From contig DOUE01000022.1 in the NCBI GenBank assembly GCA_003520745.1, positions 10,950-68,046 on the forward strand: DNA of 57,097 nt. Reading direction: 5' to 3'. The notes under the pieces were generated by a model. It ran no database searches. It had not been told where the DNA came from and saw nothing but the letters and a program-made list of their open reading frames with translations. Source of the DNA: Erysipelotrichaceae bacterium. GTDB lineage: Bacteria; Bacillota_I; Bacilli_A; Erysipelotrichales; Erysipelotrichaceae. Each line of letters starts with the position of its first letter. Position 1 is the first letter of the stretch. Position numbers and translations under genes: made by a program. Positions 33,023-47,248 of this stretch are shown here, piece after piece.

Positions 33023-33913
33023 CTATTTTTTAGGTACGTTTAGCTGTTCCAACAATATCCCGACATTGCTTGGCCGATCCGCAACCAAGGCTCCCGCCTT
33101 CGTCAACGCTTCGATTTTATCTTCCACAGCGCCTTTACCACCTGTGATGATCGCGCCGGCATGACCCATCTTCTGTCCTTTGGGAGCCGTTCTGCCACCG
33201 AGAAATGCGACCAGCGGTTTGGTGAAAACGCCTTTTTCCATCGCTTCCGCAACCTCTTCTTCCATCGTCCCGCCCAGCTCGCCGATGATGACCACGGCTT
33301 CGGTTTGTTCATCCTGCTGGTAATAGGGTAGCATTTCCGCGAATCGGGTTGCGGGAACCGGATCGCCACCGACGCCGATCAGCGTCGAAACGCCGTATCC
33401 TCGTTTTACGATCATCGCGGTAACTTCGTTGGTCAATGAACCGCTACGTGTCATGACACCGATATTGCCGCGCTTATATACGCGTTGGATCCAATAGGGG
33501 AAACTGCCCATCATCGCTTCTTCCGGCGATATGACTCCGGAGGTGTTTCCGCCGATGACCAGTGCATCATGCTCGAGTGCCGCATGGCGTATGGCGACCA
33601 TATCGAAAAGCGGTATGCCGTCAGCCATCGTAACGATCTTCTTGATTCCGTTGGCAAGCGCTTCAAATACGGCGTCCTTCGTGAGTTTCGGGGGGACGAA
33701 AATCATGGATGCATCGACTTCATGATTTCTTAATGCCCGCTCGACCGAATGGTAAACCGGTATATCATGGATGGTTTGACCTTCTTTTGCAGGGGTGACA
33801 CCACAGATGACCTGGGTTCCCAAATCAATCATGTGCTTTGTCCAAAAACTACCCTCCGAGCCGGTGATCCCCTGAACTAAAACACGTGTATTCCGATCGA
33901 TGAAAATACTCAT
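33023..33913 (-). CDS. ADP-forming acyl-CoA ligase, alpha (CoA-binding/phosphohistidine) subunit, SucD-like; predicted sulfoacetate-CoA ligase subunit
   Basis: 296 aa. Motifs: VLVQGITGSEGSFWTK, SGSLTNEV and GHAGAIITGG (catalytic His loop). It overlaps the beta subunit gene by 4 nt. Confidence 0.8.
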   Translation of the reverse strand: MSIFIDRNTRVLVQGITGSEGSFWTKHMIDLGTQVICGVTPAKEGQTIHDIPVYHSVERALRNHEVDASMIFVPPKLTKDAVFEALANGIKKIVTMADGIPLFDMVAIRHAALEHDALVIGGNTSGVISPEEAMMGSFPYWIQRVYKRGNIGVMTRSGSLTNEVTAMIVKRGYGVSTLIGVGGDPVPATRFAEMLPYYQQDEQTEAVVIIGELGGTMEEEVAEAMEKGVFTKPLVAFLGGRTAPKGQKMGHAGAIITGGKGAVEDKIEALTKAGALVADRPSNVGILLEQLNVPKK

Positions 33914-35034
33914 ATCTTCGTCTCCTTCGCTAAGGCAACCGCCAAGCGAACCGCTTCTTCCGTATCAAAAAGTGGATTCAATCCGGCTTTTCGCAGAGTT
34001 TCGACAGCTTCAACTTCATTAGTCCCACGGATACACGTCACGATTGGACGATCCGGTTTTAATTTACCGATGGCTTCAACAATGCCTTGCGCCATCACAT
34101 CGGCACGGGCGATCGTTCCAAAGGTCACGATCAAGATGACTTTCGACGGAACTTTTAAACAGATTTCCATGGCTTTCATCGCTTTTTTATAGTGAGGTCC
34201 GCCAAATTCCAGATAATTCGCGATCGTTCCGCCTTCATAGTGAACCAAGTCGTAAACGGTCGTGGTTAATCCGGCTCCTGCGCACATCAAACTGATGTCG
34301 CCATCAAACTGAATGAACGGTATGCCTTCTTCCGCCGCCAAGCGCTCTGCTTCGTTTTCGATATCCCCCAGCGGAACGGAAATGTCTTCATGTCGAAACA
34401 TGGAGTTGTCATCGATCGAACACTTCCCATCCCCGGCAACCAACTCGTTTGATTTGGTGATGAAAAGCGGATTGATTTCCAATAACTCACAATCATACTG
34501 AACAAACAAACGATACAGTTTAACCAGCAATTGGGTAAATTTCTTTGCGATTTCAGGATCAAAGCCACATTCATACGCGATGTGGTTGGCTTGATATGCT
34601 TGTAACCCGAGGTTCATATCGATTTTTGTCTGAAGGATCTTATGTGGCTGTTCAATGGCCAATGTTTCGATATCGACGCCGCCGGTAGCGCTGACGATGG
34701 ATAGGGCTGATCCGCTGATTGGATCGATCGTAAATGAAGCATAGACTTCATGGGCAATATCCACGGCTTCTTCGATGAGCAAGGATGATATTTTTTGAGG
34801 CAGGGCAAACAGTCGGGTGACTTCTTCCATCCCTTTACCCTCGTTTTTTACAAACTGAATCAATCCGGCTTTGCCGCGTCCGCCACTCAACACCTGAGAT
34901 TTGATGACACAGGGAAACCCGATTTGAGCAAACGCTTCAGACGCCTGATCGACGCGATGAATCAATTGGCTTTTCGGAACAATGATCCCTGCATTTTTAA
35001 ACAGGTCTTTTACTTGATATTCAAAAAGTTTCAT
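33910..35034 (-). CDS. ADP-forming acyl-CoA ligase, beta (ATP-grasp) subunit, SucC-like; predicted sulfoacetate-CoA ligase subunit
   Basis: 374 aa. MKLFEYQVKDLFKNAGIIVPKS and KSQVLSGGRGKAG indicate an ATP-grasp fold. The start overlaps the ALDH stop. Confidence 0.8.
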   Translation of the reverse strand: MKLFEYQVKDLFKNAGIIVPKSQLIHRVDQASEAFAQIGFPCVIKSQVLSGGRGKAGLIQFVKNEGKGMEEVTRLFALPQKISSLLIEEAVDIAHEVYASFTIDPISGSALSIVSATGGVDIETLAIEQPHKILQTKIDMNLGLQAYQANHIAYECGFDPEIAKKFTQLLVKLYRLFVQYDCELLEINPLFITKSNELVAGDGKCSIDDNSMFRHEDISVPLGDIENEAERLAAEEGIPFIQFDGDISLMCAGAGLTTTVYDLVHYEGGTIANYLEFGGPHYKKAMKAMEICLKVPSKVILIVTFGTIARADVMAQGIVEAIGKLKPDRPIVTCIRGTNEVEAVETLRKAGLNPLFDTEEAVRLAVALAKETKI

Positions 35035-36443
35035 CAGCGATCCTTCTTCCCGCTGGCGAAATAGGCTCCGAATATTTCTTCATCACTCGGACGGACGGGC
35101 GGAAAGAACTCGGAAACCCAGGTCGTGTTGATGAAATGCTTGTACGTGATGTTTTCCGAGGTGATGTTTCCACCCCAACTGCCACATCCCAAGGATACGG
35201 TCGATGGCATGCCGTTAAAGAATGCGCCACCGTTCCCTGCGGCTTGCGCCTGATTGACTAGCACCCGGCTGCTACGGATTCTTGAGCCGATGTACTTAAC
35301 ATATTCATCGTTGAAGGTATGTATTCCACAGGAATGTCCGGTACCGTAATTATCGGTTAGTCTTTCGAGAATGCGATACCCTTCTTCAAAGGTTGCGTAC
35401 TTAAAGACCGTCAATACGGGGGACAGTTTTTCTTGGGAGAAAAAGTCGGATTCGATATCTTCCCTACCTTCGACGAGCAAAACTTTCACAGAATCGTCCA
35501 CCGTCAACATGGCTCCTTGAGCAATGGACCGTGCGGATTGAGCGATGATTTTGGGGTTGATCGAGCGATATCCTTTGTCGTTTAAAGGCCACATATACAT
35601 CGATAATTGTTCGCGCATGTCTTCGGAAACTAGGTAGGCACCCAGTGAAATCAACTGTTCGATCATTTGATCATAAATCGACTCATGAATGATGATGGAG
35701 TTTTCACTTGAACACGATGTCGCATGATCAAATGCTTTACTACCCATGATTTTCGTGGCAGCGTCTTTCACATTGGCGTCTTCGGCGACGATGGATACTG
35801 AATTACCGGGTCCGACGCCATAGGCCGGTTTACCGGATGAGTATGCGGCTTTAACCATCGCCCCGCCTCCGGTCGCAAGTACGACATCGACTTGTTTCAT
35901 GAGTTCTTCCGTGACTTCGATGGAGGGTTCATCAATGACTTGGATGAGATCTTCAGGAGCGTTGACCTTGCGAAGTCCGTCCCTCATAAATTGCACGGCC
36001 ATGGCCGTCGCTTTTTTGGATCTCGGATGCGGCGCAAAGATAACGGCGTTTCTACCTTTTAAGATCGTGATCCCATTGCTGGCAGGTGTCGCCGTCGGAT
36101 TGGTTACGGGAGTCAATGCGCCGACAACGCCAACCGGTTTGGCGAATTTCCTGATTTTCTTTACCTCGTCCACTTCAATGCAACCCACGGACTTGGCATG
36201 TTGGACATCTTTTAAAACACCGAGCACTTTGTTTTTGTGTTTAGTGATTTTGTCCTGGACATTCCCCATCTTCGTTTCTTCGACCGCAAGTTTAGCCAGT
36301 ATCTCAATGTTATGATCATTGTATACTTCCCAACCGATCGCTACACAAACTTCATCGATTTGCTCTTGGGTGTAAAACTGGATTTGTTTCTGTGCAGCTT
36401 TCGCCCTCTTTACGTAGGACGACACATACTCTTTCGAACTCAT
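35034..36443 (-). CDS. CoA-acylating aldehyde dehydrogenase (EutE/PduP/SauS-like); predicted sulfoacetaldehyde dehydrogenase (acylating)
   Basis: 469 aa ALDH fold. The short C-terminus and catalytic Cys segment FDHATSCSSENS are typical of acylating ALDHs. It lies directly upstream of the CoA ligase genes. Confidence 0.8.
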   Translation of the reverse strand: MSSKEYVSSYVKRAKAAQKQIQFYTQEQIDEVCVAIGWEVYNDHNIEILAKLAVEETKMGNVQDKITKHKNKVLGVLKDVQHAKSVGCIEVDEVKKIRKFAKPVGVVGALTPVTNPTATPASNGITILKGRNAVIFAPHPRSKKATAMAVQFMRDGLRKVNAPEDLIQVIDEPSIEVTEELMKQVDVVLATGGGAMVKAAYSSGKPAYGVGPGNSVSIVAEDANVKDAATKIMGSKAFDHATSCSSENSIIIHESIYDQMIEQLISLGAYLVSEDMREQLSMYMWPLNDKGYRSINPKIIAQSARSIAQGAMLTVDDSVKVLLVEGREDIESDFFSQEKLSPVLTVFKYATFEEGYRILERLTDNYGTGHSCGIHTFNDEYVKYIGSRIRSSRVLVNQAQAAGNGGAFFNGMPSTVSLGCGSWGGNITSENITYKHFINTTWVSEFFPPVRPSDEEIFGAYFASGKKDR

Positions 36444-36453
36444 ATTTTCTCCT

Positions 36454-37707: not shown

Positions 37708-38190
37708 TTACTGACGATGAAAGCTTTCTTTCTCAATTTTGGCTACGGCTTCCTTGGCCTTAACTAAGTTTTTAGCCCTCCATTCTTCCAGATTTTGGGT
37801 AAATTCGGTATTTAAGAAGGTTTTGGTCATTTCGACACCCATGATCGGCGCAATGATCCATCCACCCATACATAGAATGTTGGCGTCGTTGATGGCACGG
37901 CACTTCTCGGCTGCATATACGGATTCGCAGGCTGCCCCGAAAACACCTTCATGCTTGTTGGCGACGATGGACATGCCCATGCCGGTTCCGCAAATCAGGA
38001 TGCCTCTTGTGTATTCTTTGGATTGAATTTTCAGTGCGCCTTTAAGCGCAACATCGAAGAAAGGCGCAGGTTTTTCTTCATCGGTGGTGCCGATGTCTTC
38101 GACTTCATAGGCTTCGCCAAGTAGATATTGTTTAATGGCTTCTTTCAATGCAAACCCGGATTTGTCTGATCCGATAAAGATTTTTTTCAT
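37708..38190 (-). CDS. RpiB/LacA/LacB-family sugar(-phosphate) isomerase; candidate 4-deoxy-4-sulfoerythrose isomerase
   Basis: Start trimmed to MKKIFIGSDKSGFALK (ATG 38188-38190). Motifs: ILICGTGMGMSIVANK and NILCMGG. Confidence 0.8.
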   Translation of the reverse strand: MKKIFIGSDKSGFALKEAIKQYLLGEAYEVEDIGTTDEEKPAPFFDVALKGALKIQSKEYTRGILICGTGMGMSIVANKHEGVFGAACESVYAAEKCRAINDANILCMGGWIIAPIMGVEMTKTFLNTEFTQNLEEWRAKNLVKAKEAVAKIEKESFHRQ

Positions 38191-38194
38191 ATTA

Positions 38195-39139
38195 CTACCC
38201 TTTTCTTTCGAGAACGCGATGCACGGCATCGACGATGTTATGTGCTTTGAGCCCGAATTTCTCCATTAAGAAGTCTTTCTTGCCGACTTCGCCAAAATGA
38301 TCTTTGGTTCCGACGCGTTCCATGACGACCGGATATTCTTCAACCAGAACTTCGGCGACCGCACTGCCCAACCCGTTGATGATATTATGGTTTTCGGCGG
38401 TAACGATTGCCCGGGTCTTCTTTGCTTCAGCAATAATCGCTTCTCGATCGATCGGCTTTACTGTGTGAATATTGACGACGCTCGCGGATATGCCTTCTTC
38501 GGCTAGGATTTTGCGTGCTTCTAGTGCTTCTACCACCATGATCCCCGTCGCAAAGATACTGACATCGGTTCCTTCTTCGAGTTTGATCGCTTTACCTAAG
38601 GTGAATTGGGTTCCATCTGCGAAGACCGATGGAAATTCCTGGCGAAGAAGTCGGATATATACCGGACCGTAGTGTTCGATGATCTGATCAAACATACCGG
38701 CGAGCTGTACGCCATCGACCGGTTCAAAGATGGTCATGGTCGGAATGGTTCTCATGATCCCGACGTCTTCCAAAGACATGTGCGTACCACCATTTAAGGT
38801 AGCCATGATTCCCGGATCTGATCCCACCATTTTGACATTGAGCTGGGCATAGGCGACCGACAGCATGACTTGGTCGAAACAGCGGCGTGTAGCAAACGGT
38901 GTGAAGGTGTGCGTGAACGGCAGTTTCCCCATGTTGCTTAACCCGGCGGCGACGCCGATCATATTGGCTTCAGCGACACCGACATTGATGGTTCTTTCCG
39001 GGAATACTTCCGCGAAGCCGGTGGTTTTCGCAGCTTTCATCAAGTCAGCTTCAACGATGACCAGATTCGGATGCTTTTTCGCGGCTTCAATCAGTAAATC
39101 TACGTAGATATCTCTTAATTGACGATCATGTAATTTCAT
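38195..39139 (-). CDS. Transketolase, C-terminal (Pyr + C domain) subunit
   Basis: 314 aa. Motifs: FPERTINVGVAEANMIGVAAGL and IFEPVDG. It overlaps the N subunit gene by 4 nt. Confidence 0.9.
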   Translation of the reverse strand: MKLHDRQLRDIYVDLLIEAAKKHPNLVIVEADLMKAAKTTGFAEVFPERTINVGVAEANMIGVAAGLSNMGKLPFTHTFTPFATRRCFDQVMLSVAYAQLNVKMVGSDPGIMATLNGGTHMSLEDVGIMRTIPTMTIFEPVDGVQLAGMFDQIIEHYGPVYIRLLRQEFPSVFADGTQFTLGKAIKLEEGTDVSIFATGIMVVEALEARKILAEEGISASVVNIHTVKPIDREAIIAEAKKTRAIVTAENHNIINGLGSAVAEVLVEEYPVVMERVGTKDHFGEVGKKDFLMEKFGLKAHNIVDAVHRVLERKG

Positions 39140-39965: not shown

Positions 39966-41306
39966 TTAGTATTTTACTACTTCACACGCGAATAATTGAG
40001 CCAATACTTCCAATTCTTCTTTGATATCCCCATAAATAACGACGAAGTGTGGTTCCCATCCATCTTGTACCATGTTCGTGATCAGCGGATTCACTTTGGG
40101 TTCCACTTCGACGACGACACTGGTTCCTAAGAATTGTTGGGGCTTGTCCAATACTTTTCCATCGAGGATCAAAAACCTGAATGTCCCATCCGGTTTACGA
40201 CCGATTCGGAAGATTGTGGCTTCTTTACATTCCTTAAGTCCAAACTCCATGGTCGGTCCGATTTTTCGATTGGGATGAACACCCACGGCTGCGCCGGTAT
40301 CTTTTCTAGCCAAACCGCAGGCAGCGGTTCCGCAATGCCAGAACGTAATGGTGTTTTCTTCTTCATCGATCGAGACGGGATCCCCAAGATAGGTTGGCGA
40401 TTTCGAGAGTTGTTGTCCGATATACATACTCAATGCGCCATAAGCGTCGGCTTCACAGGCCGCCGCAACGTTTTGATCGTTGAGCATGGCCAGCACACTG
40501 CATACCGGGGTTCCGTAATCCGTAAAGAAGTCCGGCCAGCATCGCGAAGCTATGGCTTTGATTTGATTTTTATCGATATAGTCTTGATATGCTTTGTACA
40601 GTTTGACAAAGTCGACGCGGTTTTTGGTTACGGTTTTATCCAATCCGACCATTCGCCGACCAATTTCATTTTCTTCGTTTTTTGCATCTTCGATCTTCAT
40701 TTCCTGGGCAATCTTGGTCAGTTCTCGTGATTCAATGGCGAGAAGATTGACACCGAAGGTCGAGGCCATTTCGAGATCCAAAGCACGGCCGAAGCCGAAT
40801 CCCTGCGGGGTGTGTCCAACCATCAGAAGATTCGCGTTTTTCATTTCGTGTTTCAACTTCGCGGCATGAATGATCTTTTTCAGTCTGTTTTGAATGCCAT
40901 CTTCGCTGGGTGAGCCATACATGTAGAAAATTCTGTCTTTTCTCATCGCTTTGTAGGCATACCCTGCCGAGAACGCTCCGGTTAATGAGTTAAGTCTGAG
41001 TCTTCCGCCATCAATGACAGGTTCACGTAACGTCCACAACAAGACTGGCGCAGAGATACGTTTCAATACTTCCGTCGCATATGCAGAGTTGGCAAAGGTT
41101 ACATTCTGTAAAATCACCAAGTCGGGATTCTTCCCATCGATATACTTAAGTAGCGTTTCGATAGACAATAGCATTTCACTGCTGACGGTAATCGTCTCGT
41201 CGATGCTCTTGAGCAAGCTGATTGAATCCTCATATGCTCTTTGGGCGGATTCTAAGTGAAATGTCGGAACACCAATCGGTACATATAGACATTCAAACGG
41301 TTTCAT
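39966..41306 (-). CDS. L-fucose/L-arabinose isomerase-family protein (COG2407-like), role in the SQ operon unassigned
   Basis: 446 aa. Motifs: ASRCWPDFF, AACEADAYGALS, FWHCGTA, GWEPHFVVIYGD. Confidence 0.75.
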   Translation of the reverse strand: MKPFECLYVPIGVPTFHLESAQRAYEDSISLLKSIDETITVSSEMLLSIETLLKYIDGKNPDLVILQNVTFANSAYATEVLKRISAPVLLWTLREPVIDGGRLRLNSLTGAFSAGYAYKAMRKDRIFYMYGSPSEDGIQNRLKKIIHAAKLKHEMKNANLLMVGHTPQGFGFGRALDLEMASTFGVNLLAIESRELTKIAQEMKIEDAKNEENEIGRRMVGLDKTVTKNRVDFVKLYKAYQDYIDKNQIKAIASRCWPDFFTDYGTPVCSVLAMLNDQNVAAACEADAYGALSMYIGQQLSKSPTYLGDPVSIDEEENTITFWHCGTAACGLARKDTGAAVGVHPNRKIGPTMEFGLKECKEATIFRIGRKPDGTFRFLILDGKVLDKPQQFLGTSVVVEVEPKVNPLITNMVQDGWEPHFVVIYGDIKEELEVLAQLFACEVVKY

Positions 41307-41366: not shown

Positions 41367-42575
41367 TTATTTCTTGGCGTCTTTGAGTTTGGTTTCTAGT
41401 TCTTGTAACGCTTCCAACGGCGTTGCTTCTTTAGCGACAGCTTTGCGGATGGCTTCGTTGATCATCGGATACATTCCCGGAACCATGACTTGAGTTAACC
41501 AGTCTTGAACATAGGATGCATCGGTCGCGGCGATTTCATCAAGGAATATGGCATACTCATCTTTGAAATTGCCATAGTCGACTTCTGCGCCTAAACGCGG
41601 TGTCAAGTAAGGAACTCCACCGGTATATCTGTCGTGGTTTTCGCCTTTGGCTAACCAAGTAATGAATTTCTTGGCTTCTTTGGGAGCGTTGGAGTCCATA
41701 AACGCTGCGATGGACTTACCGCCGAGAATGGTCGCGCGGTTTGTTTCTTTCGGCATCGGGACGACCGTCCAGTCAAATGTCAAGTCTTGATAACTGCTGA
41801 CATTCCAGTTGCCTGACATATGGAAGCCGTATGCGCCCGTTCTAAACAAAGAGGCGGCGGTTGTACCGGCATAAACGGCATCGTCAATTAATCCACTTTC
41901 ATAGAAACCGACGAGTTTAGTCAATGCGTCGACAGCTGCGGTTCCAGTCAAATTACTTTCAGTGTACGGTGTTTTCCAGATTTTTGTTCCGTGTTGATAA
42001 ACCATCGGGAAAAAGCGGTGTGCTTGAGGATCGAAGACGCCCGGGAAGTTAACATCGGTACCGACACCGGCACGAAGCTTATTTACTTCGGTCTCGAATT
42101 CGTCCCATGTCCAGACGGCTTCGCCCGGTTTCGGATAGTTTACCCCGTATTTTTCCATCAAATCAACATTGATGAATAATCCGTTGGCCGTAATGTCCAT
42201 GGGTAGTGCAATAACTTCTTCATCATCATTATAGAATAAGTTGGTGAATCCCGCGCTGTCAAAGACACCTTTTAAACTCTGGATTTTTCCTTTGAAGTTA
42301 TTCAAATGTCCTTCGGTGACGCGTGCGAGTGCAGGAGCTTCTCCTCCACTGATCATGGTTGCCAAACGTGCTTCATAATCAGCGTAAGGAATTACGACTA
42401 ATTCGATTTTTACGCCTGTTTTCGTTTCGTATTCTGTAAGCAATGTTTGCATGACCGCACCTTCGGTGCCGTCGCTCCACCACAGCATTTGCAGTTCTTT
42501 AGGTTCTTGCTTAGCGCAAGCACTAAAGCCGGAGATAACGAATAAGACTAAAAGCAGACTAAGTATTCTTTTCAT
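41367..42575 (-). CDS. ABC sugar-binding lipoprotein (CUT1); candidate SQ / sulfoquinovosyl-glycerol binding protein
   Basis: 402 aa with lipobox MKRILSLLLVLFVISGFSAC and an SBP family 1 pattern. Confidence 0.8.
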   Translation of the reverse strand: MKRILSLLLVLFVISGFSACAKQEPKELQMLWWSDGTEGAVMQTLLTEYETKTGVKIELVVIPYADYEARLATMISGGEAPALARVTEGHLNNFKGKIQSLKGVFDSAGFTNLFYNDDEEVIALPMDITANGLFINVDLMEKYGVNYPKPGEAVWTWDEFETEVNKLRAGVGTDVNFPGVFDPQAHRFFPMVYQHGTKIWKTPYTESNLTGTAAVDALTKLVGFYESGLIDDAVYAGTTAASLFRTGAYGFHMSGNWNVSSYQDLTFDWTVVPMPKETNRATILGGKSIAAFMDSNAPKEAKKFITWLAKGENHDRYTGGVPYLTPRLGAEVDYGNFKDEYAIFLDEIAATDASYVQDWLTQVMVPGMYPMINEAIRKAVAKEATPLEALQELETKLKDAKK

Positions 42576-42621: not shown

Positions 42622-43437
42622 TTAACCCTTCATCCCGCTATCAACCGTTCCTTGAACGAATTGACGTTGGAAGATCAAGAAGACGATAAGCATCGGAATC
42701 ATGGCTAATGCGCTCATCGCGATGACGGAATTGTAGTCGATCCCGAATTCACCCGAGAAATTGGCGATCGCCAATTGAAGGGTGTATTTTTTCGGCGAGT
42801 TGATCGCGATCAGTGGCCAGACGTAGTCGTTCCAGCGCCACATAAACGAGAAGATGGCGAGGGTGGCGATGGCTGGTTTGGCGTTGGGTAAGATGATGTT
42901 CCAGAAGATCCGCCATTCCGATGCACCGTCGATGCGGGCCGCTTGAATGACTTCATCCGGGATGGTCAACAAGTATTGTCTCATTAAGAATATGCCGGTC
43001 GGTGTTGCGGCCGGGGGGATGATCAAGGCCAATAAAGAGTTGTACAGTCCGAAGAACCGTAAAACCGAGAAGATGGGGACCATGATGACTTCCAGCGGCA
43101 ACATGATGGTTGACAGTATCAACAACATGATGACATTCTCGCCTTTGAAGCGGAATTTGGATAGTGCGTAGCCGGCCATGGTGTTAATGATGACCGCGAT
43201 GATCGTGCTGGATATCGCCACTAGGAAGGTATTGAAGATATACAATGAGAAGTTGCCTTTGCTTAGTGCGATGGTGAAGTTTTCCAGGGTCCAATCTTTG
43301 GGAATAAACGTCGGATTGGCGGAGAACAGCTCGGATGATGGTTTAAAGGCGGAGAAGATGATGTAGATGACCGGAAGTATGAAGATTAAAAGAACCACGA
43401 TCGAGAGGACATAGGTTAAGAGGCTAGCCTTTTTCAT
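42622..43437 (-). CDS. CUT1 ABC sugar permease (MalG-like)
   Basis: 271 aa with EAA loop QAARIDGASEWRIFWNIILP. Confidence 0.85.
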   Translation of the reverse strand: MKKASLLTYVLSIVVLLIFILPVIYIIFSAFKPSSELFSANPTFIPKDWTLENFTIALSKGNFSLYIFNTFLVAISSTIIAVIINTMAGYALSKFRFKGENVIMLLILSTIMLPLEVIMVPIFSVLRFFGLYNSLLALIIPPAATPTGIFLMRQYLLTIPDEVIQAARIDGASEWRIFWNIILPNAKPAIATLAIFSFMWRWNDYVWPLIAINSPKKYTLQLAIANFSGEFGIDYNSVIAMSALAMIPMLIVFLIFQRQFVQGTVDSGMKG

Positions 43438-44336
43438 ACATTCTCCCCTCTTTTCGATAGAAAGAAGTTTGCTGCAGTGAAGATGGTGACGATCAATAAC
43501 ATGACCATGGACATCGCACTGGCAGATCCGACTTGATATTCTTTAAACGCTACTTCATAAACGTATTGAACGGTGAAATACGTGGCACGATGCGGCCCGC
43601 CGCCGGTCAAGGTTACGACCAGCGGATAGACTTTGAAGATTTCCATGGTCGTCAAGATAAATACCATCAGACGTGCCGGTCGAATGGCTGGATAGGTGAT
43701 GTACATGAATTTTTGTAGCTTGCTGGCTCCGTCCATATCGGCGGCTTCGTAGAGGGGTACCGGAATGCTAAGCAGGGCGGCCATAAAGATAATCATGTAG
43801 TAGCCCGCTCTTGACCATACGAGTGCGAAGACGACGGACCACCAGGCAAACGTCGGGTCCGTGAGTGTCTTTAGCGTCTGAATGCCAAGAGACCTTGCGA
43901 TGGCGTTGAAGATACTGAAATTTCCAGCCAATATCCAGTTCCACATAATACCGATGACGATGGCGGATATCATGACCGGCCAGTAATAGACGGCGCGAAA
44001 CAGTCCTTTGGCTTTGAGCGGCTGCACGATGAGTACGGCCATTGTCAAGGATGCCACGTACATGATCGGAACCACGACGATGACAAGCTTGATTGTATTC
44101 ACGAAGGCTTTGACAAAGTATTCGTTGTCGATCAGTTTGACGTAATTTTCCAATCCGATGAAATCGAAGCCGTCGAAGGTGAACAGGGTAACGTCGGTGA
44201 ATGAGTAATACAGTCCGATGAGCGCCGGCACAATGATGAAAATCGAAAATATGAGCAAATTGGGCGCGAGGAACATATAGGGAACAATTTTTTGTTTGAA
44301 TTCCACTCCACGCACTTTTTTCTTCACTTTTGTCAT
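43434..44336 (-). CDS. CUT1 ABC sugar permease (MalF-like)
   Basis: 300 aa with EAA loop YEAADMDGASKLQKFMYITYP. Confidence 0.85.
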   Translation of the reverse strand: MTKVKKKVRGVEFKQKIVPYMFLAPNLLIFSIFIIVPALIGLYYSFTDVTLFTFDGFDFIGLENYVKLIDNEYFVKAFVNTIKLVIVVVPIMYVASLTMAVLIVQPLKAKGLFRAVYYWPVMISAIVIGIMWNWILAGNFSIFNAIARSLGIQTLKTLTDPTFAWWSVVFALVWSRAGYYMIIFMAALLSIPVPLYEAADMDGASKLQKFMYITYPAIRPARLMVFILTTMEIFKVYPLVVTLTGGGPHRATYFTVQYVYEVAFKEYQVGSASAMSMVMLLIVTIFTAANFFLSKRGENV

Positions 44337-44339: not shown

Positions 44340-46358
44340 TTATCCCCCTTTCCCATATTTCTTGTAAATATCTTCGAACAACGTTCGATAGGTCGATTGT
44401 TTCCGGTAGAATACCGGCGGATATCCGATGGGTGCATCCACCGTGATTTCTCCACCATCGAATTCTGCTCCTGTCCATAAGTGAATCCAGGTATCGGAGG
44501 GTAGATAACATGTCTGGGAAAGTTGAGACTCTTTGACGATCGGTTTTACATACAAATCCTGTCCGAAAAGGTATTCGTACTGTAGATCAAACACTTTCTC
44601 GTCTTCCGGATAATGTAAGAACAATGGTCGCTGCAACGGATAGCCAAATTTCGTCGCCTCTTCAACCAATCTCAAGAAATACGGTTTCAAGTCGACTTTG
44701 ATATTCGAGCATCGAGCCATGTGTTTCATGGTATCCACATCGTTGTAAAATTGGAAGTTCTGACTCGGACGGTTTCCTTCGTGGCTTCTCATGTAAGAGG
44801 AGAATATGTTCATTTCACACCAGCGGTCAAACAACTCCTTGGTTCGGATGTTTCCGTGTAAGCTGGTATATCCGCCGATATCGCTGTGTGTATAGGGGTT
44901 TCCGATGATGCCGGTGGAAAGTGCGGATGGAATGACGGAGGCGATTCCGTCATGGGTTTCCCAATTGACGCTTTGATCTCCTGCCCACATCGATGTGCAG
45001 TACTTTTGTGAGCCAAAGCCACCAGCTCGCATAAAGTAGAAGACTTTCCCCAAATTCCCAGATTCCTTAACGGCTTCGTAATTACACTTCGCCCATAATA
45101 CCGGCCAGGCGTTGTGCATGATTTTCGCACTTACACCGTTATGCAGGACACAGTCGATGGGCAAATATTCCCCGAAGTCCGCCATCCAGCCTTTGATGCC
45201 CAAGGACAGAATGTTCTTTTTAATCACATTCTTATACCACTCGAATCCCAGAGGGTTTGTCAGATCGACAATACCGCAATAGAATTCGCCGAAATCTTCG
45301 AGATATGGATTCCCCTCAACATCAAGGGCAAGATATCCAAACGATTTCGCCTCGTTGAACAGCGTTTCGTTTTCCAATAAGAACGGGCAGATATAGGTCA
45401 GAAAGGCGATGTTTTCCTTATTCAGTTCAGCGATCTCATCCTTTAAATTGGGGTAGAGTTTCTCATTGAGCACCCAGTTCCAGTACAATCGCTTTCCAAA
45501 CGTGGTAAAGCGGTGCCCGACCCAGTCTTGAACCCAAAGGCCGTTGACTTTAATCCCATTTTCAAGCGCAAGGTCTTTGTATTTGCGTACGGTTTCCATG
45601 CCACCTTGGACACCTAGGATGATCCCATCGTGCAAGAAGTCAGGTAGCATCGGCGGTCTTCCTGTAAATTCGGTCAGGTCGGTCAAGAGTTCAAGGTAAC
45701 TATCACTGAAATTCAATGTCAGTTCACAGGGAACTTCCCAAAACATTAATTCATGAAAATCCGGTGATCGGAAATCAAACTCGGCATAGGCCGTCGATTC
45801 CACATGCAACCAGTATTTCCGGGTGGATACGAAGGTTGGTTCCGGATAATAGGTCGTGTAGTAGTCCCCACCAGCCTTATCCACTTTATCCGCATAGAAT
45901 GTTGTCAATGAAGATTTATCGCGTCCAACGCCGGGCTCGGAGGTCCAGAGCGGATATTTCCTGTTTCTTAAGTTGAAGTAGGAGGCTTGTTCTCCACACC
46001 CGTATACTTTTTCACCGGCATCTGCTTTCATTCGGATCCAGAAGCGATTGACATCGGTTTTGTTGCATGAGAATTTCATGGTCAACCGTTGACTCACAAT
46101 GAGGAATTCAACGGTAAGAGACTCGCCGTGACTTGAGAAAACACAACTGTTTTCGACGACCTGTGCTTCTGTCAGTGGAATCCGACTCTCTAGTCGGTCT
46201 TCGATTTGATAGTTGCCACGATAACTTTCAATCGTTTCATTTCCCCGCCCAACAAAAACGAACGGATGATCACTTGAATGTTCAAGGATGCACTCATCTT
46301 TGAACATCACTCTCAACCGATCTTTATTTTTCTCAAGTGTTAACATATCTTCCTCCAT
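44340..46358 (-). CDS. yihQ: GH31 sulfoquinovosidase (YihQ family)
   Basis: 672 aa. Long collinear similarity to E. coli YihQ as I remember it: QDWVGHRFTTFGKRLYWNW (KRxxW Arg/Trp sulfonate pocket), GWMADFGEYLP (nucleophile Asp), HNGVSAKIMHNAWPVLWAKCNYEA, MWAGDQSVNW (acid/base Asp), HSDIGGYT (sulfonate Tyr) and SHEGNRP. Confidence 0.85.
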   Translation of the reverse strand: MEEDMLTLEKNKDRLRVMFKDECILEHSSDHPFVFVGRGNETIESYRGNYQIEDRLESRIPLTEAQVVENSCVFSSHGESLTVEFLIVSQRLTMKFSCNKTDVNRFWIRMKADAGEKVYGCGEQASYFNLRNRKYPLWTSEPGVGRDKSSLTTFYADKVDKAGGDYYTTYYPEPTFVSTRKYWLHVESTAYAEFDFRSPDFHELMFWEVPCELTLNFSDSYLELLTDLTEFTGRPPMLPDFLHDGIILGVQGGMETVRKYKDLALENGIKVNGLWVQDWVGHRFTTFGKRLYWNWVLNEKLYPNLKDEIAELNKENIAFLTYICPFLLENETLFNEAKSFGYLALDVEGNPYLEDFGEFYCGIVDLTNPLGFEWYKNVIKKNILSLGIKGWMADFGEYLPIDCVLHNGVSAKIMHNAWPVLWAKCNYEAVKESGNLGKVFYFMRAGGFGSQKYCTSMWAGDQSVNWETHDGIASVIPSALSTGIIGNPYTHSDIGGYTSLHGNIRTKELFDRWCEMNIFSSYMRSHEGNRPSQNFQFYNDVDTMKHMARCSNIKVDLKPYFLRLVEEATKFGYPLQRPLFLHYPEDEKVFDLQYEYLFGQDLYVKPIVKESQLSQTCYLPSDTWIHLWTGAEFDGGEITVDAPIGYPPVFYRKQSTYRTLFEDIYKKYGKGG

Positions 46359-47035
46359 TAATAGTAGATCTCAATGTTTTCCCCATGGATCGCGCTGATT
46401 GCATTGAGTTCAACCATTCGAGTGTTTTCCGGGTGATTTAGCAGCCATTTGTTTGTCTTGAATAGAAACTTGCCATATTTCCCTTGATTGCCTTTGGCAC
46501 TGACAAATTCCATGTTGGTACCATAAGGTAGAATGACCGCGCATTTGAAGCCTGAATCGGTTACTTTACAAGGAGAGAAGTGCAACGTCGTTGAATACAC
46601 TTCGATCGCCGTATTCTGGGGGATATAGAATGCGGTCACTTTGGAGGAGTGAAACGTCGAATCGTCAATATCCTCTATATGCGCAAGCAGTAATACAAGC
46701 GGGGTGACGCACACATTGATTTCGGAACTCTTGTGGAATTCAAGGGCATTGAGTTTGGAGTTGTTCCCGTTGACGTAGCCATATTCTAACGGCACCCTCC
46801 CGAAGGTGTTGTGTATGACGGAGAGATCGGAAACGAGATCCCCCAATTCAGCCCGATGCGGTACATATTCATTGCCCACACTAGGCACAGTTGTGTGTAA
46901 CTCTAAATATCTGATCAAATCACCAAATTCGCTGACGTCCAACACTTCCCCAAATCGACTAAACTCAGGATCGTGTACGGAATGGATTTGGATGTGGGGG
47001 TTCTTGACCCGAAGATTCTCTAGCATTTCATTCAT
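46358..47035 (-). CDS. DUF4867-like cupin protein; candidate sulfoquinovose isomerase (SqvD/SftI type)
   Basis: 225 aa, first gene of the operon. Its stop overlaps the GH31 start (TAATG). The family assignment comes from size, predicted beta-rich composition and context, not from a search. Confidence 0.55.
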   Translation of the reverse strand: MNEMLENLRVKNPHIQIHSVHDPEFSRFGEVLDVSEFGDLIRYLELHTTVPSVGNEYVPHRAELGDLVSDLSVIHNTFGRVPLEYGYVNGNNSKLNALEFHKSSEINVCVTPLVLLLAHIEDIDDSTFHSSKVTAFYIPQNTAIEVYSTTLHFSPCKVTDSGFKCAVILPYGTNMEFVSAKGNQGKYGKFLFKTNKWLLNHPENTRMVELNAISAIHGENIEIYY

Positions 47036-47036
47036 T

Positions 47037-47050
47037 TGTTAGCGCTTACA
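47037..47050 (-). promoter_or_regulatory. cre box 1, between the RBS and ATG of the first SQ operon gene
   Basis: Minus strand TGTAAGCGCTAACA is a perfect match to TGWAANCGNTNWCA and ends 1 nt before the ATG. Confidence 0.7.
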
Positions 47051-47106
47051 TCCTTTCAAAAAAATTTTGGGTTCTTGACCCGAAGACTCTTGTCTATTCA
47101 CTCATC

Positions 47107-47120
47107 TGTTAGCGCTTACA
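47107..47120 (-). promoter_or_regulatory. cre box 2 (duplicated copy) in the SQ operon leader
   Basis: Identical TGTAAGCGCTAACA, 70 nt upstream of box 1. Confidence 0.7.
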
Positions 47121-47219
47121 TTCTTTCCAAAATTTTTTTCGGTCGATTGATTAACAATGATACCGATAAGTTGATGCATGAAGTTGTGAATTTCCTATTA
47201 AACTATTTGTATTAAACTC

Positions 47220-47248
47220 ATTATATATTTTCCTATTCACCGCGTCAA
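47220..47248 (-). promoter_or_regulatory. Strong sigma-A-type promoter of the SQ operon
   Basis: Minus strand TTGACG (47243-47248), a 17-nt spacer, then TATAAT (47220-47225). This implies a ~178-nt leader. Confidence 0.7.

What the first reader, a model, noticed from the sequence alone, without database searches (positions are those of the whole stretch)
33023..47248. 14-gene sulfoquinovose operon: transketolase-type sulfoglycolysis ending in sulfoacetate plus ATP
SEEN IN SEQUENCE. One co-directional minus-strand string lies behind a single TTGACG-17-TATAAT promoter, with gene overlaps or gaps of 60 nt or less. In order it encodes a DUF4867-like protein, a GH31 glycosidase, two CUT1 permeases with an SBP lipoprotein, and a FucI-family isomerase. 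These are followed by a split transketolase, an RpiB-family isomerase and an anion permease. The last three genes encode a CoA-acylating aldehyde dehydrogenase and a SucC/SucD-like ADP-forming CoA ligase. The GH31 protein carries the residues that separate sulfoquinovosidases (E. coli YihQ) from alpha-glucosidases. These are the KRLYW Arg/Trp pair, the WMADFGEY nucleophile, the MWAGDQ acid/base and the HSDIGGYT Tyr.

ESTABLISHED KNOWLEDGE. DUF4867 enzymes (SqvD/SftI) isomerise SQ to 6-deoxy-6-sulfofructose. In the sulfo-TK route, transketolase moves C1-C2 onto glyceraldehyde-3-P, giving Xu5P and 4-deoxy-4-sulfoerythrose. An aldose-ketose isomerase and a second transketolase step then give sulfoacetaldehyde.

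INFERENCE. The operon has no sugar kinase, aldolase, transaldolase, dehydratase or monooxygenase. That argues against the sulfo-EMP, -ED, -TAL and -SMO routes and leaves sulfo-TK. The tail of the operon predicts sulfoacetaldehyde -> sulfoacetyl-CoA (plus NADH) -> sulfoacetate plus ATP, followed by export. The first-described sulfo-TK pathway instead reduces sulfoacetaldehyde to isethionate and consumes NADH.

CAVEAT FROM MEMORY. I believe a sulfoacetate-forming sulfo-TK variant has been reported from an Acholeplasma-like metagenome bin, so the core chemistry may already be described. The extra isomerase, the exporter family and the regulation (separate findings) still look open.
Basis: partly seen in the sequence, partly recalled or inferred. 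Interest (0 to 1): 0.9.

Follow-up and report, generated by a model that had tools for sequence, protein, structure and literature searches.

The report
Sulfoquinovose-to-sulfoacetate transketolase operon, known type
This is a real 13-gene operon for breaking down the plant sulfosugar sulfoquinovose to sulfoacetate with an extra ATP. It is an ordinary copy of a pathway published in 2023, so it adds a new host organism rather than new biology.

Summary
The gene string is real. It has 13 genes, not 14, all on the minus strand from 47035 to 23023+10000 (33023), behind a TTGACG-17-TATAAT promoter at 47248-47220. All gene junctions are 60 nt or less.

The GH31 protein is a true sulfoquinovosidase. 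It is 49% identical to E. coli YihQ and keeps Q288, R301, W304, D405, D472 and Y508.

The pathway call is supported: transketolase-type sulfoglycolysis (sulfo-TK) ending in sulfoacetyl-CoA, then sulfoacetate plus ATP. This variant was published by Chu et al. 2023 (SqwD, SqwKL). The same gene order occurs in Acholeplasma, Izemoplasma and Erysipelotrichaceae genomes.

- The FucI-like protein is the canonical sulfoquinovose isomerase SqvD/SftI, so there is no extra isomerase.
- The DUF4867 protein is SqvB/SftX, a cupin metalloprotein whose function is still unknown.

The MatC/CitMHS permease is a fixed part of the Mollicutes/Erysipelotrichales form of the cluster. It is mutually exclusive with a DASS-type permease in the other lineages (36 versus 32 of 80 loci, none with both).

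Features particular to this copy:
- No linked regulator.
- A 70-bp leader duplication that doubles a cre-like box.
- Insertion into a glycogen/maltodextrin locus.

Verdict: new member of a known kind, low interest.

The parts
47220..47248 (-). Sigma-70-type promoter TTGACG-17-TATAAT of the operon
   Evidence: Read directly. It is the best promoter-like hit in 32800-47700, 11 of 12. The same hexamers and spacing lie upstream of the orthologous operons in L091-L094.
47319..47333 (-). Terminator-like hairpin plus T-run between the upstream pullulanase-like gene (stop at 47553) and the operon promoter
   Evidence: AGCAGGTCTCTTGCT TTTTATTTCT. This is a consensus match only. That it insulates the operon from read-through is inferred.
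46998..47132 (-). 70-bp tandem duplication (1.9 copies, 84% matches). It covers the ribosome-binding region, the cre-like box and the first ~37 nt of the first gene. The upstream copy carries a 3-codon ORF (ATG AGT GAA TAG).
   Evidence: The relatives L091-L094 have a single copy.
47107..47120 (-). cre-like box TGTAAGCGCTAACA, upstream copy
   Evidence: the pattern TGWAANCGNTNWCA matches 7 times in the window against 0.09 expected.
47037..47050 (-). cre-like box TGTAAGCGCTAACA, ending 1 nt before the start codon of the first gene
   Evidence: The same box is conserved next to the start codon in L091, L092 and L094, with one change in L093.
46358..47035 (-). SqvB/SftX homologue: DUF4867 cupin metalloprotein of 225 aa, biochemical role unknown
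   Evidence: PF16161 scores 218 bits. It scores 187.5 bits against PDB 9GYY, B. megaterium SqvB. The four metal ligands are conserved as E99, H101, E105 and H152 (with PMC11968277).
44340..46358 (-). Sulfoquinovosidase (YihQ/SftG type GH31), 672 aa
   Evidence: NCBIfam PRK10426 scores 928 bits against a cut-off of 553. PDB scores are 842 bits to 6PNR (E. rectale SftG) and 780 bits to E. coli YihQ, against 151 bits for the best GH31 enzyme outside that group. Q288, R301, W304, D405, D472 and Y508 are conserved.
43434..44336 (-). ABC permease 1 (CUT1/UgpA-like), 300 aa
   Evidence: PF00528. The best NCBIfam hit is UgpA, below its cut-off.
42622..43437 (-). ABC permease 2 (CUT1/UgpE-like), 271 aa
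   Evidence: PF00528. The best NCBIfam hit is UgpE, below its cut-off.
41367..42575 (-). Solute-binding lipoprotein, 402 aa. Presumed binder of sulfoquinovose or sulfoquinovosyl-glycerol.
   Evidence: PF13416 and PF01547. It is only distantly related to solved binding proteins, the best being 61 bits to Lmo0181. The ligand is inferred from context.
39966..41306 (-). SqvD/SftI-type sulfoquinovose isomerase (FucI family), 446 aa
   Evidence: Its only NCBIfam hit is SftI sulfoquinovose isomerase: 404.9 bits, E 3.7e-121, full length, below the equivalog cut-off of 700. Pfam Fucose_iso_C scores 25 bits. The family assignment of SqvD comes from PMC9594981.
39136..39954 (-). SqwG: transketolase N-terminal (thiamine diphosphate-binding) subunit, 272 aa
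   Evidence: PF00456 scores 181 bits. The GDG...N thiamine diphosphate motif (IGDGESQEG...TDYN) is in the translation.
38195..39139 (-). SqwH: transketolase pyrimidine-binding and C-terminal subunit, 314 aa
   Evidence: PF02779 and PF02780.
37708..38190 (-). SqwI: RpiB/LacAB-family isomerase, 160 aa from the ATG at 38190. Presumed 4-deoxy-4-sulfoerythrose/sulfoerythrulose isomerase.
   Evidence: PF02502 scores 144 bits. TIGR00689 scores 116 bits against a cut-off of 88.3. The 160-aa start is the one used in all assemblies. The family of SqwI is given in PMC9594981.
36454..37695 (-). MatC_N/CitMHS permease, 413 aa. Presumed sulfoacetate exporter.
   Evidence: PF07158 scores 107 bits and PF03600 66 bits. 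It occupies the same position in 36 of 80 SqwD loci and is mutually exclusive with a DASS permease present in 32 of 80. The substrate is inferred.
35034..36443 (-). SqwD-type CoA-acylating sulfoacetaldehyde dehydrogenase, 469 aa
   Evidence: The best NCBIfam hit is SauS, acylating sulfoacetaldehyde dehydrogenase: 515 bits against a cut-off of 600. It is 62-77% identical to the genes in the same position in Acholeplasma-, Izemoplasma- and spirochaete-labelled clusters.
33910..35034 (-). SqwK: beta (ATP-grasp) subunit of an ADP-forming acyl-CoA ligase, 374 aa
   Evidence: PF08442 plus PF00549. The NCBIfam SucC equivalog scores 310 bits, below its cut-off of 370.
33023..33913 (-). SqwL: alpha (CoA-binding, phosphohistidine) subunit, 296 aa
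   Evidence: PF02629 plus PF00549. The NCBIfam SucD model scores 329 bits, below its cut-off of 336. The GHAGA loop is in the translation.
32834..32863 (-). Candidate operon terminator: 12-bp stem plus T-rich tail, 160 nt past the last stop codon and inside the 3' end of the convergent amylase gene
   Evidence: This is a consensus match only.
21216..22307 (-). MsmK/UgpC/MalK-type ABC ATPase outside the operon. It is the likely energiser of the ATPase-less sulfoquinovose importer.
   Evidence: ABC_tran plus OB_MalK. The NCBIfam UgpC subfamily model scores 509 bits against a cut-off of 432. The link to this operon is inferred.

Best explanation
The 13 genes form one operon for the sulfoacetate-forming variant of transketolase-type sulfoglycolysis (sulfo-TK). 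The proposed steps are these; all substrates and the direction of flux are inferred from homology, gene order and the published enzymology of orthologues, and nothing was measured on these proteins.

1. A CUT1-type ABC importer takes up sulfoquinovose (SQ) or its glycerol glycoside. It consists of a lipoprotein binder and two permeases, and is probably powered by the MsmK-like ATPase encoded 11 kb away.
2. The YihQ-type GH31 enzyme releases SQ from the glycoside.
3. The FucI-family isomerase SqvD converts SQ to 6-deoxy-6-sulfofructose. The DUF4867 cupin SqvB may assist, for example by ring opening or anomerisation; this has not been shown in any organism.
4. The split transketolase SqwGH moves C1-C2 onto glyceraldehyde-3-phosphate. 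The products are xylulose-5-phosphate and 4-deoxy-4-sulfoerythrose.
5. The RpiB-family isomerase SqwI makes sulfoerythrulose.
6. SqwGH acts a second time, giving a second xylulose-5-phosphate and sulfoacetaldehyde.
7. SqwD oxidises sulfoacetaldehyde with NAD(P)+ and CoA to sulfoacetyl-CoA.
8. The SucCD-like ligase SqwKL converts sulfoacetyl-CoA, ADP and phosphate to sulfoacetate, ATP and CoA.
9. The MatC/CitMHS permease exports sulfoacetate.

Expression probably starts at one sigma-70-type promoter. It is probably under CcpA-type catabolite repression through cre-like boxes next to the ribosome-binding site.
For: - Gene content and order.
- GH31 enzyme: it falls within the sulfoquinovosidase group, scoring 780-842 bits against SQases and 151 bits against the best GH31 enzyme outside that group. 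It passes NCBIfam PRK10426 at 928 bits against a cut-off of 553. All six catalytic and sulfonate-binding residues are conserved.
- FucI-like protein: its only NCBIfam hit is the SftI sulfoquinovose isomerase model, E 3.7e-121.
- Aldehyde dehydrogenase: the best hit is the SauS sulfoacetaldehyde dehydrogenase model at 515 bits.
- SucCD-like pair: both fall below the succinyl-CoA synthetase equivalog cut-offs, 310 versus 370 and 329 versus 336. This is consistent with a non-succinate substrate.
- Literature: PMC9594981, PMC12890257, PMC11659671 and PMC11489063 describe this enzyme set, and the SqwD/SqwKL branch was shown with recombinant Acholeplasma enzymes.
- Conservation: a scan of one genome per species found 80 SqwD loci. 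The same gene order, from the GH31 gene through to SqwL, recurs at 52-84% protein identity in Acholeplasma sp., Acholeplasmataceae, Mariniplasma and Izemoplasmatales, including the complete genome of Ca. Izemoplasma sp. B36. Metagenome contigs carrying the permease of Tenericutes bacterium MZ-XQ have all 13 genes with nearly identical protein lengths.
- Exporter: the MatC-type permease (36 loci) and a DASS-type permease (32 loci) never co-occur among the 80 loci. This is the pattern expected for two interchangeable carriers of the same end product.
- Regulation: the cre-like box next to the start codon is conserved in relatives.
Against: - No enzyme or transporter from this organism has been assayed.
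- Three key proteins score below NCBIfam's curated equivalog cut-offs: SqvD 405 versus 700, SqwD 515 versus 600, and SqwK/SqwL as given above. The assignments therefore rest on best hit plus gene order.
- Transketolase and RpiB substrate specificity cannot be read from sequence.
- SqwI activity has not been shown directly even in the type system (PMC9594981).
- The function of SqvB is unknown.
- I could not read Chu et al. 2023, so identity to the exact characterised proteins and their name for the exporter are unverified.
- The rest of the genome was not seen. An unlinked sulfoacetaldehyde reductase could divert part of the flux to isethionate.
Confidence: 0.85

Rival explanations
1. The pathway is bifurcated or mainly reductive. 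The operon produces sulfoacetaldehyde as described, but much of it is reduced to isethionate by a reductase (SqwF/TauF/IsfD type) encoded elsewhere. In this reading SqwD and SqwKL serve only as a redox-dependent side branch.
For: Oxidising sulfoacetaldehyde makes extra NADH, which a fermenter must dispose of. Bifurcated sulfoglycolysis is documented in Faecalicatena (PMC11659671) and Enterococcus gilvus (PMC11489063). Only 57 kb of the genome was seen.
Against: No Fe-alcohol dehydrogenase or SDR reductase is in the operon or among the window ORFs I scanned. None turned up in the syntenic relatives, although their flanking genes were only partly annotated. PMC12890257 states that bacteria with SqwD/SqwKL lack SqwF and SqwE.
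Confidence: 0.08
2. The last four genes run in the opposite direction, as in Bilophila wadsworthia (SauI/SauCD/SauS). Sulfoacetate would be imported, activated with ATP and reduced to sulfoacetaldehyde.
For: SauCD and SauS of B. wadsworthia are homologues of SqwKL and SqwD and catalyse the reverse reactions (PMC10413351).
Against: No desulfonating enzyme (Xsc or IseG/IseH) and no sulfite reductase is in the operon or window. The four genes are embedded in a single operon with an SQ importer, a sulfoquinovosidase and a transketolase, which produce sulfoacetaldehyde rather than consume it.
Confidence: 0.03
3. The operon degrades a non-sulfonated alpha-glucoside or 6-deoxy sugar by an unusual transketolase route. 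The aldehyde dehydrogenase and ligase would then act on an ordinary C2-C4 aldehyde such as glycolaldehyde, malonate semialdehyde or succinate semialdehyde.
For: Public records label the products generically as alpha-glucosidase, transketolase, aldehyde dehydrogenase and succinate-CoA ligase. Several products score below the curated sulfo-enzyme cut-offs. The operon is embedded among alpha-glucan genes.
Against: All sulfonate-binding residues of YihQ are retained, and the protein scores about 630 bits or more higher against SQases than against any other solved GH31 enzyme. The best hits of three further proteins are sulfo-specific models or structures: SftI, SauS and SqvB. The flanking alpha-glucan genes are not part of the conserved cluster, because relatives carry the operon in unrelated contexts.
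Confidence: 0.04

Closest known systems
Sulfoacetate-forming sulfo-TK variant of Acholeplasma sp. (Chu et al. 2023, Appl Environ Microbiol 89:e00617-23: SqvD, SqwGH, SqwI, SqwD, SqwKL)
   Same: It has the same enzyme set and the same end reactions: sulfoacetaldehyde to sulfoacetyl-CoA to sulfoacetate plus ATP. Acholeplasma-labelled genomes such as L024 (Acholeplasma sp. SURF_22) and L018 carry the same gene order, including the MatC-type permease between SqwI and SqwD. Protein identities there are 53-79%.
   Different: The host is an Erysipelotrichaceae-like groundwater MAG (Firmicutes bacterium GWF2_51_9 lineage) with about 51% GC. This copy has no linked regulator. It has a duplicated cre-bearing leader and sits inside a glycogen/maltodextrin locus. 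The paper itself was not readable, so which Acholeplasma proteins were assayed is unverified.
Original reductive sulfo-TK pathway of Clostridium sp. MSTE9 (Liu et al. 2021: SqvB, SqvD, SqwGH, SqwI, SqwF, SqwE)
   Same: The upper pathway to sulfoacetaldehyde uses the same protein families: FucI-type isomerase, split transketolase, RpiB-type isomerase and DUF4867 (PMC9594981).
   Different: There is no SqwF Fe-alcohol dehydrogenase, so NADH is not consumed. SqwD and SqwKL instead oxidise the aldehyde and make ATP. The exporter is a MatC/CitMHS permease rather than the SqwE sulfite/sulfonate-type transporter, as SqwE is described in PMC12890257.
Sulfoacetate-variant clusters of spirochaetes, Clostridia and Christensenellales (found here: L040-L087)
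   Same: SqwD, SqwK and SqwL are 50-77% identical, and many loci also hold SqwGHI, SqvB and YihQ.
   Different: The gene order differs. In place of the MatC-type permease, a DASS/SLC13 permease of about 485 aa (PF00939, TIGR00785) follows SqwL. It is only 26% identical to the window permease.
Bilophila wadsworthia sulfoacetate degradation (SauCD, SauS, SauI, SauXYZ; PMC10413351)
   Same: It has a homologous ADP-forming sulfoacetate-CoA ligase and an acylating sulfoacetaldehyde dehydrogenase. SauI belongs to the sodium:sulfate symporter family, the same family as the DASS permeases in the spirochaete and clostridial clusters.
   Different: It runs in the reductive, ATP-consuming direction and feeds IseG desulfonation. 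It has no sulfosugar genes. The window's transporter is MatC-type, not DASS or TTT.
Sulfo-TAL (sulfo-SFT) pathway of Bacillus megaterium and Eubacterium rectale
   Same: It shares the front end: sulfoquinovosidase (842 bits to E. rectale SftG, 6PNR), SqvB/SftX (187 bits to 9GYY) and SqvD/SftI.
   Different: It uses a transaldolase and yields C3 sulfonates. The window has no transaldolase.

Membership tests
Sulfo-TK pathway, sulfoacetate-forming variant | GH31 sulfoquinovosidase with the sulfonate-binding Q/R/W/Y set and two catalytic Asp residues | tested here: met
   Q288, R301, W304, D405, D472 and Y508 (E. coli numbering) are all conserved. NCBIfam PRK10426 scores 928 bits against a cut-off of 553. 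PDB scores are 780-842 bits to solved SQases.
Sulfo-TK pathway, sulfoacetate-forming variant | FucI-family sulfoquinovose isomerase SqvD/SftI | tested here: inconclusive
   The only NCBIfam hit is the SftI equivalog: full length, 404.9 bits, E 3.7e-121, but below the curated cut-off of 700. Pfam Fucose_iso_C scores 25.1 bits against 29.3. The gene holds the same position in the Acholeplasma-type clusters. Homology is clear, but equivalog status by NCBI's rule is not reached.
Sulfo-TK pathway, sulfoacetate-forming variant | Split thiamine diphosphate-dependent transketolase (SqwG plus SqwH) | tested here: met
   PF00456 on one ORF, and PF02779 plus PF02780 on the next, with a 4-nt overlap. The GDG...N motif is present. 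Acceptance of sulfofructose cannot be tested here.
Sulfo-TK pathway, sulfoacetate-forming variant | RpiB/LacAB-family isomerase SqwI next to the transketolase | tested here: met
   PF02502 scores 144 bits. TIGR00689 scores 116 bits against a cut-off of 88.3.
Sulfo-TK pathway, sulfoacetate-forming variant | CoA-acylating sulfoacetaldehyde dehydrogenase SqwD | tested here: inconclusive
   The best NCBIfam hit is the SauS equivalog at 515 bits, below its cut-off of 600. The next hits are AdhE and EutE-type acetaldehyde dehydrogenases. It is 62-77% identical to the genes in the same position in 80 loci. Substrate preference is not testable.
Sulfo-TK pathway, sulfoacetate-forming variant | ADP-forming two-subunit (SucCD-like) acyl-CoA ligase SqwKL | tested here: met
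   ATP-grasp_2 plus Ligase_CoA, and CoA_binding plus Ligase_CoA. The GHAGA phosphohistidine loop is present. Both subunits score below the succinyl-CoA synthetase equivalog cut-offs.
Sulfo-TK pathway, sulfoacetate-forming variant | No kinase, aldolase, transaldolase, dehydratase, monooxygenase or sulfoacetaldehyde reductase in the cluster | tested here: met
   No such Pfam domain occurs among the 13 products.
Sulfo-TK pathway, sulfoacetate-forming variant | Demonstrated conversion of SQ to sulfoacetate with ATP formation | not testable with these tools
   This needs enzyme assays or growth experiments.
Reductive sulfo-TK pathway (isethionate-forming) | Metal-dependent alcohol dehydrogenase SqwF (PF00465) in the cluster | tested here: not met
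   PF00465 has no hit in any operon product or scanned window ORF.
SqvB/SftX (DUF4867 cupin) | PF16161 domain with the four metal ligands Glu97, His99, Glu103 and His150 of B. megaterium SqvB | tested here: met
   PF16161 scores 218 bits. The alignment to 9GYY shows the ligands conserved as E99, H101, E105 and H152. The ligand list comes from PMC11968277.
MatC/CitMHS permeases (ion-transporter superfamily) | MatC_N plus CitMHS domains | tested here: met
   PF07158 scores 107 bits against a cut-off of 23. PF03600 scores 66 bits against 31.9.
DASS/SLC13 sodium:sulfate symporters (SauI-like) | Na_sulph_symp (PF00939) or TIGR00785 match | tested here: not met
   The window permease has no PF00939 hit and no NCBIfam hit. 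It is 26% identical over 356 aa to the DASS permease of spirochaete clusters.
CcpA/cre catabolite control | cre consensus TGWAANCGNTNWCA near the promoter or start codon | tested here: met
   There are two exact matches, at 47037-47050 and 47107-47120. The window holds 7 matches against 0.09 expected. The box is conserved in relatives. The presence of a ccpA gene and actual binding were not tested.

The most novel reading that the evidence does not exclude
The 413-aa MatC/CitMHS permease is a dedicated sulfoacetate exporter. MatC carriers are known from my own recollection as malonate carriers, and sulfoacetate is the sulfonate isostere of malonate. If so, the family has been recruited to a sulfonate substrate. 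It would stand in non-orthologous displacement with the DASS permeases of the spirochaete and clostridial clusters. In addition, this Erysipelotrichaceae copy may have lost the dedicated regulators found in relatives (GntR or ROK type) and be governed only by a duplicated cre box.
Probability: 0.5. Interest if true: 0.3.

Novelty: new member of a known kind. Interest (0 to 1): 0.18.

Why it matters
[quoted passage not shown] Which C2 or C3 sulfonate a primary degrader excretes determines which secondary degraders, and how much sulfide, follow.

This locus places the ATP-yielding sulfoacetate route in Erysipelotrichaceae-like bacteria from aquifer sediment, where public records label the genes generically. 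That is useful for annotation and for sulfur-cycle gene surveys, but it does not change the known biochemistry.

Two modest leads come out of the comparison. Two mutually exclusive candidate sulfoacetate exporter families could now be tested. The DUF4867 protein, still without a function, holds the first position in the operon.

Tried and rejected
- I tried to read Chu et al. 2023 (PMC10370302) to get the characterised sequences and the name of the exporter. The paper is not held.
- I looked for a fourteenth gene. No junction exceeds 60 nt, and the leader holds only a 3-codon ORF inside the duplicated segment.
- I tested whether the ~185-nt leader contains a structured RNA or attenuator. A small hairpin followed by a T-run is shared with relatives, but the folding energies of four leaders are no better than shuffles (z from -0.76 to +0.76). 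Rfam finds nothing in the whole window. Rejected.
- I looked in the window for a dedicated regulator, an MFS transporter or a second GH31 gene like those linked to the operon in relatives. tblastn found none.
- I asked whether the solute-binding protein resembles the solved SQ-glycerol binder SmoF. It is not among the PDB hits at E of 0.001 or better.
Rejected, because it is SqvD/SftI.
- A PDB sequence search with SqvD found nothing.
- A literature search for sulfo-TK together with Erysipelotrichaceae found no paper.

Full report
**Observation**

Between 47035 and 33023 the minus strand carries an unbroken series of ORFs. There are 13, not 14. Junctions are overlaps of 1-4 nt or gaps of 3-60 nt.

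The RpiB-like ORF can be read from 38229, but every assembly and relative starts it at the ATG at 38190, giving 160 aa.

The promoter TTGACG-17-TATAAT lies at 47248-47220 and is the best match in the region, 11 of 12. The simple scan finds no more promoter-like sites than shuffles do (20 versus 21.8). The stronger evidence is that the same hexamers and spacing precede the orthologous operons of four relatives.

A terminator-like hairpin at 47333-47319 separates the operon from the pullulanase-like gene upstream. A 12-bp hairpin with a T-rich tail lies at 32863-32834, 160 nt past the last stop codon.

**What the genes are**

Pfam and NCBIfam give the following, in transcription order:

| Position | Coordinates | Family | Assignment |
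|---|---|---|---|
| 1 | 46358-47035 | DUF4867 | SqvB/SftX |
| 2 | 44340-46358 | GH31 | sulfoquinovosidase |
| 3, 4 | 43434-44336, 42622-43437 | CUT1 permeases | importer |
| 5 | 41367-42575 | solute-binding lipoprotein | importer |
| 6 | 39966-41306 | FucI-like | SqvD/SftI |
| 7 | 39136-39954 | Transketolase_N | SqwG |
| 8 | 38195-39139 | Transket_pyr + Transketolase_C | SqwH |
| 9 | 37708-38190 | RpiB/LacAB | SqwI |
| 10 | 36454-37695 | MatC_N/CitMHS permease | presumed exporter |
| 11 | 35034-36443 | aldehyde dehydrogenase | SqwD |
| 12 | 33910-35034 | SucC-like | SqwK |
| 13 | 33023-33913 | SucD-like | SqwL |

*GH31.* This is a genuine sulfoquinovosidase.
- It passes NCBIfam's YihQ model at 928 bits against a cut-off of 553.
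- It scores 842 bits against E. rectale SftG (6PNR), 780 bits against E. coli YihQ and about 700 bits against a further YihQ-labelled enzyme (5OHS, 5OHY). The best GH31 enzyme outside that group scores 151 bits.
- It is 49% identical to E. coli YihQ, with Q288, R301, W304, D405, D472 and Y508 all conserved.

*FucI-like protein.* Its one NCBIfam hit is the SftI sulfoquinovose isomerase model: full length, 404.9 bits, below the equivalog cut-off of 700.

*Aldehyde dehydrogenase.* Its best hit is the SauS acylating sulfoacetaldehyde dehydrogenase model, 515 bits against a cut-off of 600.

*SucC and SucD homologues.* They fall just below the succinyl-CoA synthetase cut-offs, 310 versus 370 and 329 versus 336. 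They keep the ATP-grasp, CoA-binding and GHAGA phosphohistidine features.

None of the 13 products is a kinase, aldolase, transaldolase, dehydratase, monooxygenase or Fe-alcohol dehydrogenase.

The review PMC9594981 gives the family assignments:
- SqvD/SftI, the sulfoquinovose (SQ) isomerase, belongs to the FucI family (PF02952).
- The DUF4867 protein (PF16161) is SqvB.
- SqwI belongs to the RpiB/LacAB family (PF02502).

PMC11968277 solved the B. megaterium SqvB structure (9GYY). It is a metal-binding cupin. No mutarotase or ring-opening activity on SQ or sulfofructose could be detected with SftX, and the role is called enigmatic.

The window protein scores 187.5 bits against 9GYY and keeps all four metal ligands, as E99, H101, E105 and H152.

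The supposed extra isomerase is the canonical SQ isomerase. The protein whose function is truly open is the DUF4867 product.

**Is the pathway known?**

Yes. Three papers describe the variant of Chu et al. 2023: PMC12890257, PMC11659671 and PMC11489063. In it sulfoacetaldehyde is oxidised by the CoA-acylating dehydrogenase SqwD, and the ADP-forming ligase SqwKL then releases sulfoacetate with ATP formation. It was demonstrated with recombinant Acholeplasma sp. enzymes and is reported in Spirochaetes, Firmicutes and Tenericutes. The primary paper is not held.

**Source and relatives**

The window's proteins are identical to those of MAGs labelled Firmicutes bacterium GWF2_51_9 and Erysipelotrichaceae bacterium. 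The matching assemblies are GCA_001800835.1, GCA_001800865.1 and GCA_003455215.1, and further matching contigs come from sediment metagenomes. In those records the proteins carry generic names.

A scan of one genome per species with a SqwD alignment returned 80 loci. I compared all 13 window proteins with these loci by tblastn.
- The order from the GH31 gene through the permeases, binder, SqvD, SqwG, SqwH, SqwI, MatC permease, SqwD and SqwK to SqwL recurs at 89-100% identity in the closest Erysipelotrichales MAGs.
- It recurs at 52-84% identity in Acholeplasma sp., Acholeplasmataceae, Mariniplasma and Izemoplasmatales, including the complete genome of Ca. Izemoplasma sp. B36.
- Metagenome contigs carrying the permease of Tenericutes bacterium MZ-XQ hold all 13 genes, DUF4867 first, with nearly identical protein lengths.

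**The exporter**

The permease belongs to a compact subfamily: 236 proteins at E of 1e-5 or better, and the 120 best listed are nearly all 406-414 aa.

Among the 80 SqwD loci the two permease types divide as follows:

| Permease type | Loci | Position | Lineages |
|---|---|---|---|
| MatC/CitMHS, 413 aa | 36 | between SqwI and SqwD | Mollicutes, Erysipelotrichales |
| DASS/SLC13, about 485 aa (PF00939, TIGR00785) | 32 | directly after SqwL | Spirochaetes, Clostridia, Christensenellales |
| both types | 0 | - | - |

The two types are only 26% identical. Mutual exclusivity at a fixed place beside the sulfoacetate-forming genes is what two alternative carriers of the same product would show.

The DASS type is the family of B. 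wadsworthia SauI, a proposed sulfoacetate transporter (PMC10413351). The MatC_N domain is described by Pfam as a dicarboxylate carrier. That MatC carries malonate rests on my own recollection. Sulfoacetate is the sulfonate analogue of malonate, and SauCD retains 7% activity on malonate. The exporter role remains an inference.

**What is particular to this copy**

1. *No linked regulator.* MZ-XQ-type clusters end with two GntR/UTRA genes. The Erysipelotrichaceae relatives L091, L092 and L094 continue with three more genes: an MFS_2 transporter, a second GH31 gene and a ROK protein with an N-terminal helix-turn-helix region. Acholeplasmatales L090 has the MFS_2 and second GH31 genes but no ROK gene. 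The window has none of these.
2. *A duplicated leader.* The leader carries a 70-bp tandem duplication at 46998-47132. It doubles a perfect cre-like box, TGTAAGCGCTAACA, at 47037-47050 and 47107-47120. Relatives have one copy of the box next to the start codon. The upstream copy of the duplicated start region holds only a 3-codon ORF.
3. *An unusual location.* The operon lies between a pullulanase-like gene with a glycogen phosphorylase on one side and a maltodextrin ABC/amylase cluster on the other. Its GC content is 0.472 against 0.511 for the rest of the window. Relatives carry it in unrelated neighbourhoods. This suggests acquisition or relocation as a unit.
4. *No ABC ATPase in the operon.* An MsmK/UgpC-type ATPase at 21216-22307 is the likely energiser.

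**Negative results**

The leader does not fold better than shuffled sequence, and Rfam finds no RNA family in the window. The binding protein is not close to any solved SQ-glycerol binder. SqvD has no solved relative detectable by sequence.

**Verdict**

The pathway interpretation is correct, but two enzyme roles are mislabelled. The chemistry and the cluster architecture, very probably including the exporter, are already known from the Acholeplasma-type system. I rate it a new member of a known kind, with low interest.

The residual open points are the biochemical role of SqvB, experimental proof of either exporter family, and whether the duplicated cre leader has any regulatory effect.

Noticed in passing
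window 46998-47132 (minus strand): A 70-bp tandem duplication (1.9 copies, 84% matches) covers the ribosome-binding region, the cre-like box and the first ~37 nt of the DUF4867 gene. The upstream copy reads ATG AGT GAA TAG. Its start region resembles the allele of relative L092, and the downstream copy resembles that of L091. All four relatives examined have one copy.
   Followed up: partly
window 16064-16077, 16114-16127, 27750-27763, 47037-47050, 47107-47120: The window has seven strand-matches, at five sites, to the cre consensus TGWAANCGNTNWCA, against 0.09 expected. The three sites outside the operon lie in front of alpha-glucan and maltodextrin genes: an amylase-like gene at 16105 and the binding-protein gene ending at 27769. 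This points to CcpA-type control of the whole sugar region. No LacI/CcpA gene was found among the window ORFs I scanned.
   Followed up: partly
window 33023-47035 versus flanks; L088, L090-L094: The operon has lower GC than the rest of the window (0.472 versus 0.511). It is wedged into a glycogen/maltodextrin locus containing glgA, glgB, glgC, glgD and glgP-like genes, a pullulanase-like gene, amylases and a maltodextrin ABC system. Relatives carry the same operon next to unrelated genes: a ParE toxin, an M23 peptidase, DUF1576 and UPRTase. It looks like a mobile unit.
   Followed up: partly
L091 14758-19194; L092 14729-19175; L094 14732-19161; L090 14762-18158: Close relatives extend the operon with an MFS_2 (GPH-type) transporter and a second YihQ-like GH31 gene (36-39% identical to E. 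coli YihQ). L091, L092 and L094 also add a ROK protein with an N-terminal helix-turn-helix region. In the second GH31 protein the sulfonate-binding Arg301 is replaced by Gln, while W304, Y508, Q288 and both catalytic Asp residues are kept. This suggests a different substrate. The module is absent from the window.
   Followed up: partly
L008-L087 (80 SqwD loci): The MatC/CitMHS-type permease (36 loci, before SqwD) and the DASS/SLC13-type permease (32 loci, after SqwL) are mutually exclusive. Each follows lineage: Mollicutes and Erysipelotrichales for the first; Spirochaetes, Clostridia and Christensenellales for the second.
   Followed up: yes
L088 and L089 14741-16253: Metagenome contigs carrying the permease of Tenericutes bacterium MZ-XQ end the same 13-gene operon with two tandem GntR/UTRA (HutC-type) regulator genes. 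These are candidate SQ-responsive regulators, and the window lacks them.
   Followed up: no
window 21216-22307 (minus strand): A stand-alone MsmK/UgpC/MalK-type ABC ATPase (NCBIfam UgpC subfamily, 509 bits against a cut-off of 432) lies next to a small PucR-HTH protein (22371-22934). It probably serves several CUT1 importers, including the ATPase-less SQ system.
   Followed up: partly
window 37708-38229; L001 and L005 7529-8581: Start-codon ambiguities. The RpiB-like ORF extends to 38229, but every assembly calls it from 38190 (160 aa). The NCBI records for this MAG call the MatC-type permease as 350 aa, whereas other assemblies and all homologues give 413 aa.
   Followed up: partly
L093 1332-3344: In one metagenome relative the sulfoquinovosidase gene is split into three ORFs of 258, 248 and 147 aa. 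This is either a pseudogene or assembly or sequencing errors.
   Followed up: no
L052, L058, L073, L074, L083, L085: Christensenella- and Clostridiales-labelled loci have SqwD, usually with both ligase subunits, followed by a DASS permease and a YihQ-like GH31 gene. No transketolase or RpiB gene lies within 10 kb on either side. The upper pathway may be encoded elsewhere, or these clusters may do something different.
   Followed up: no
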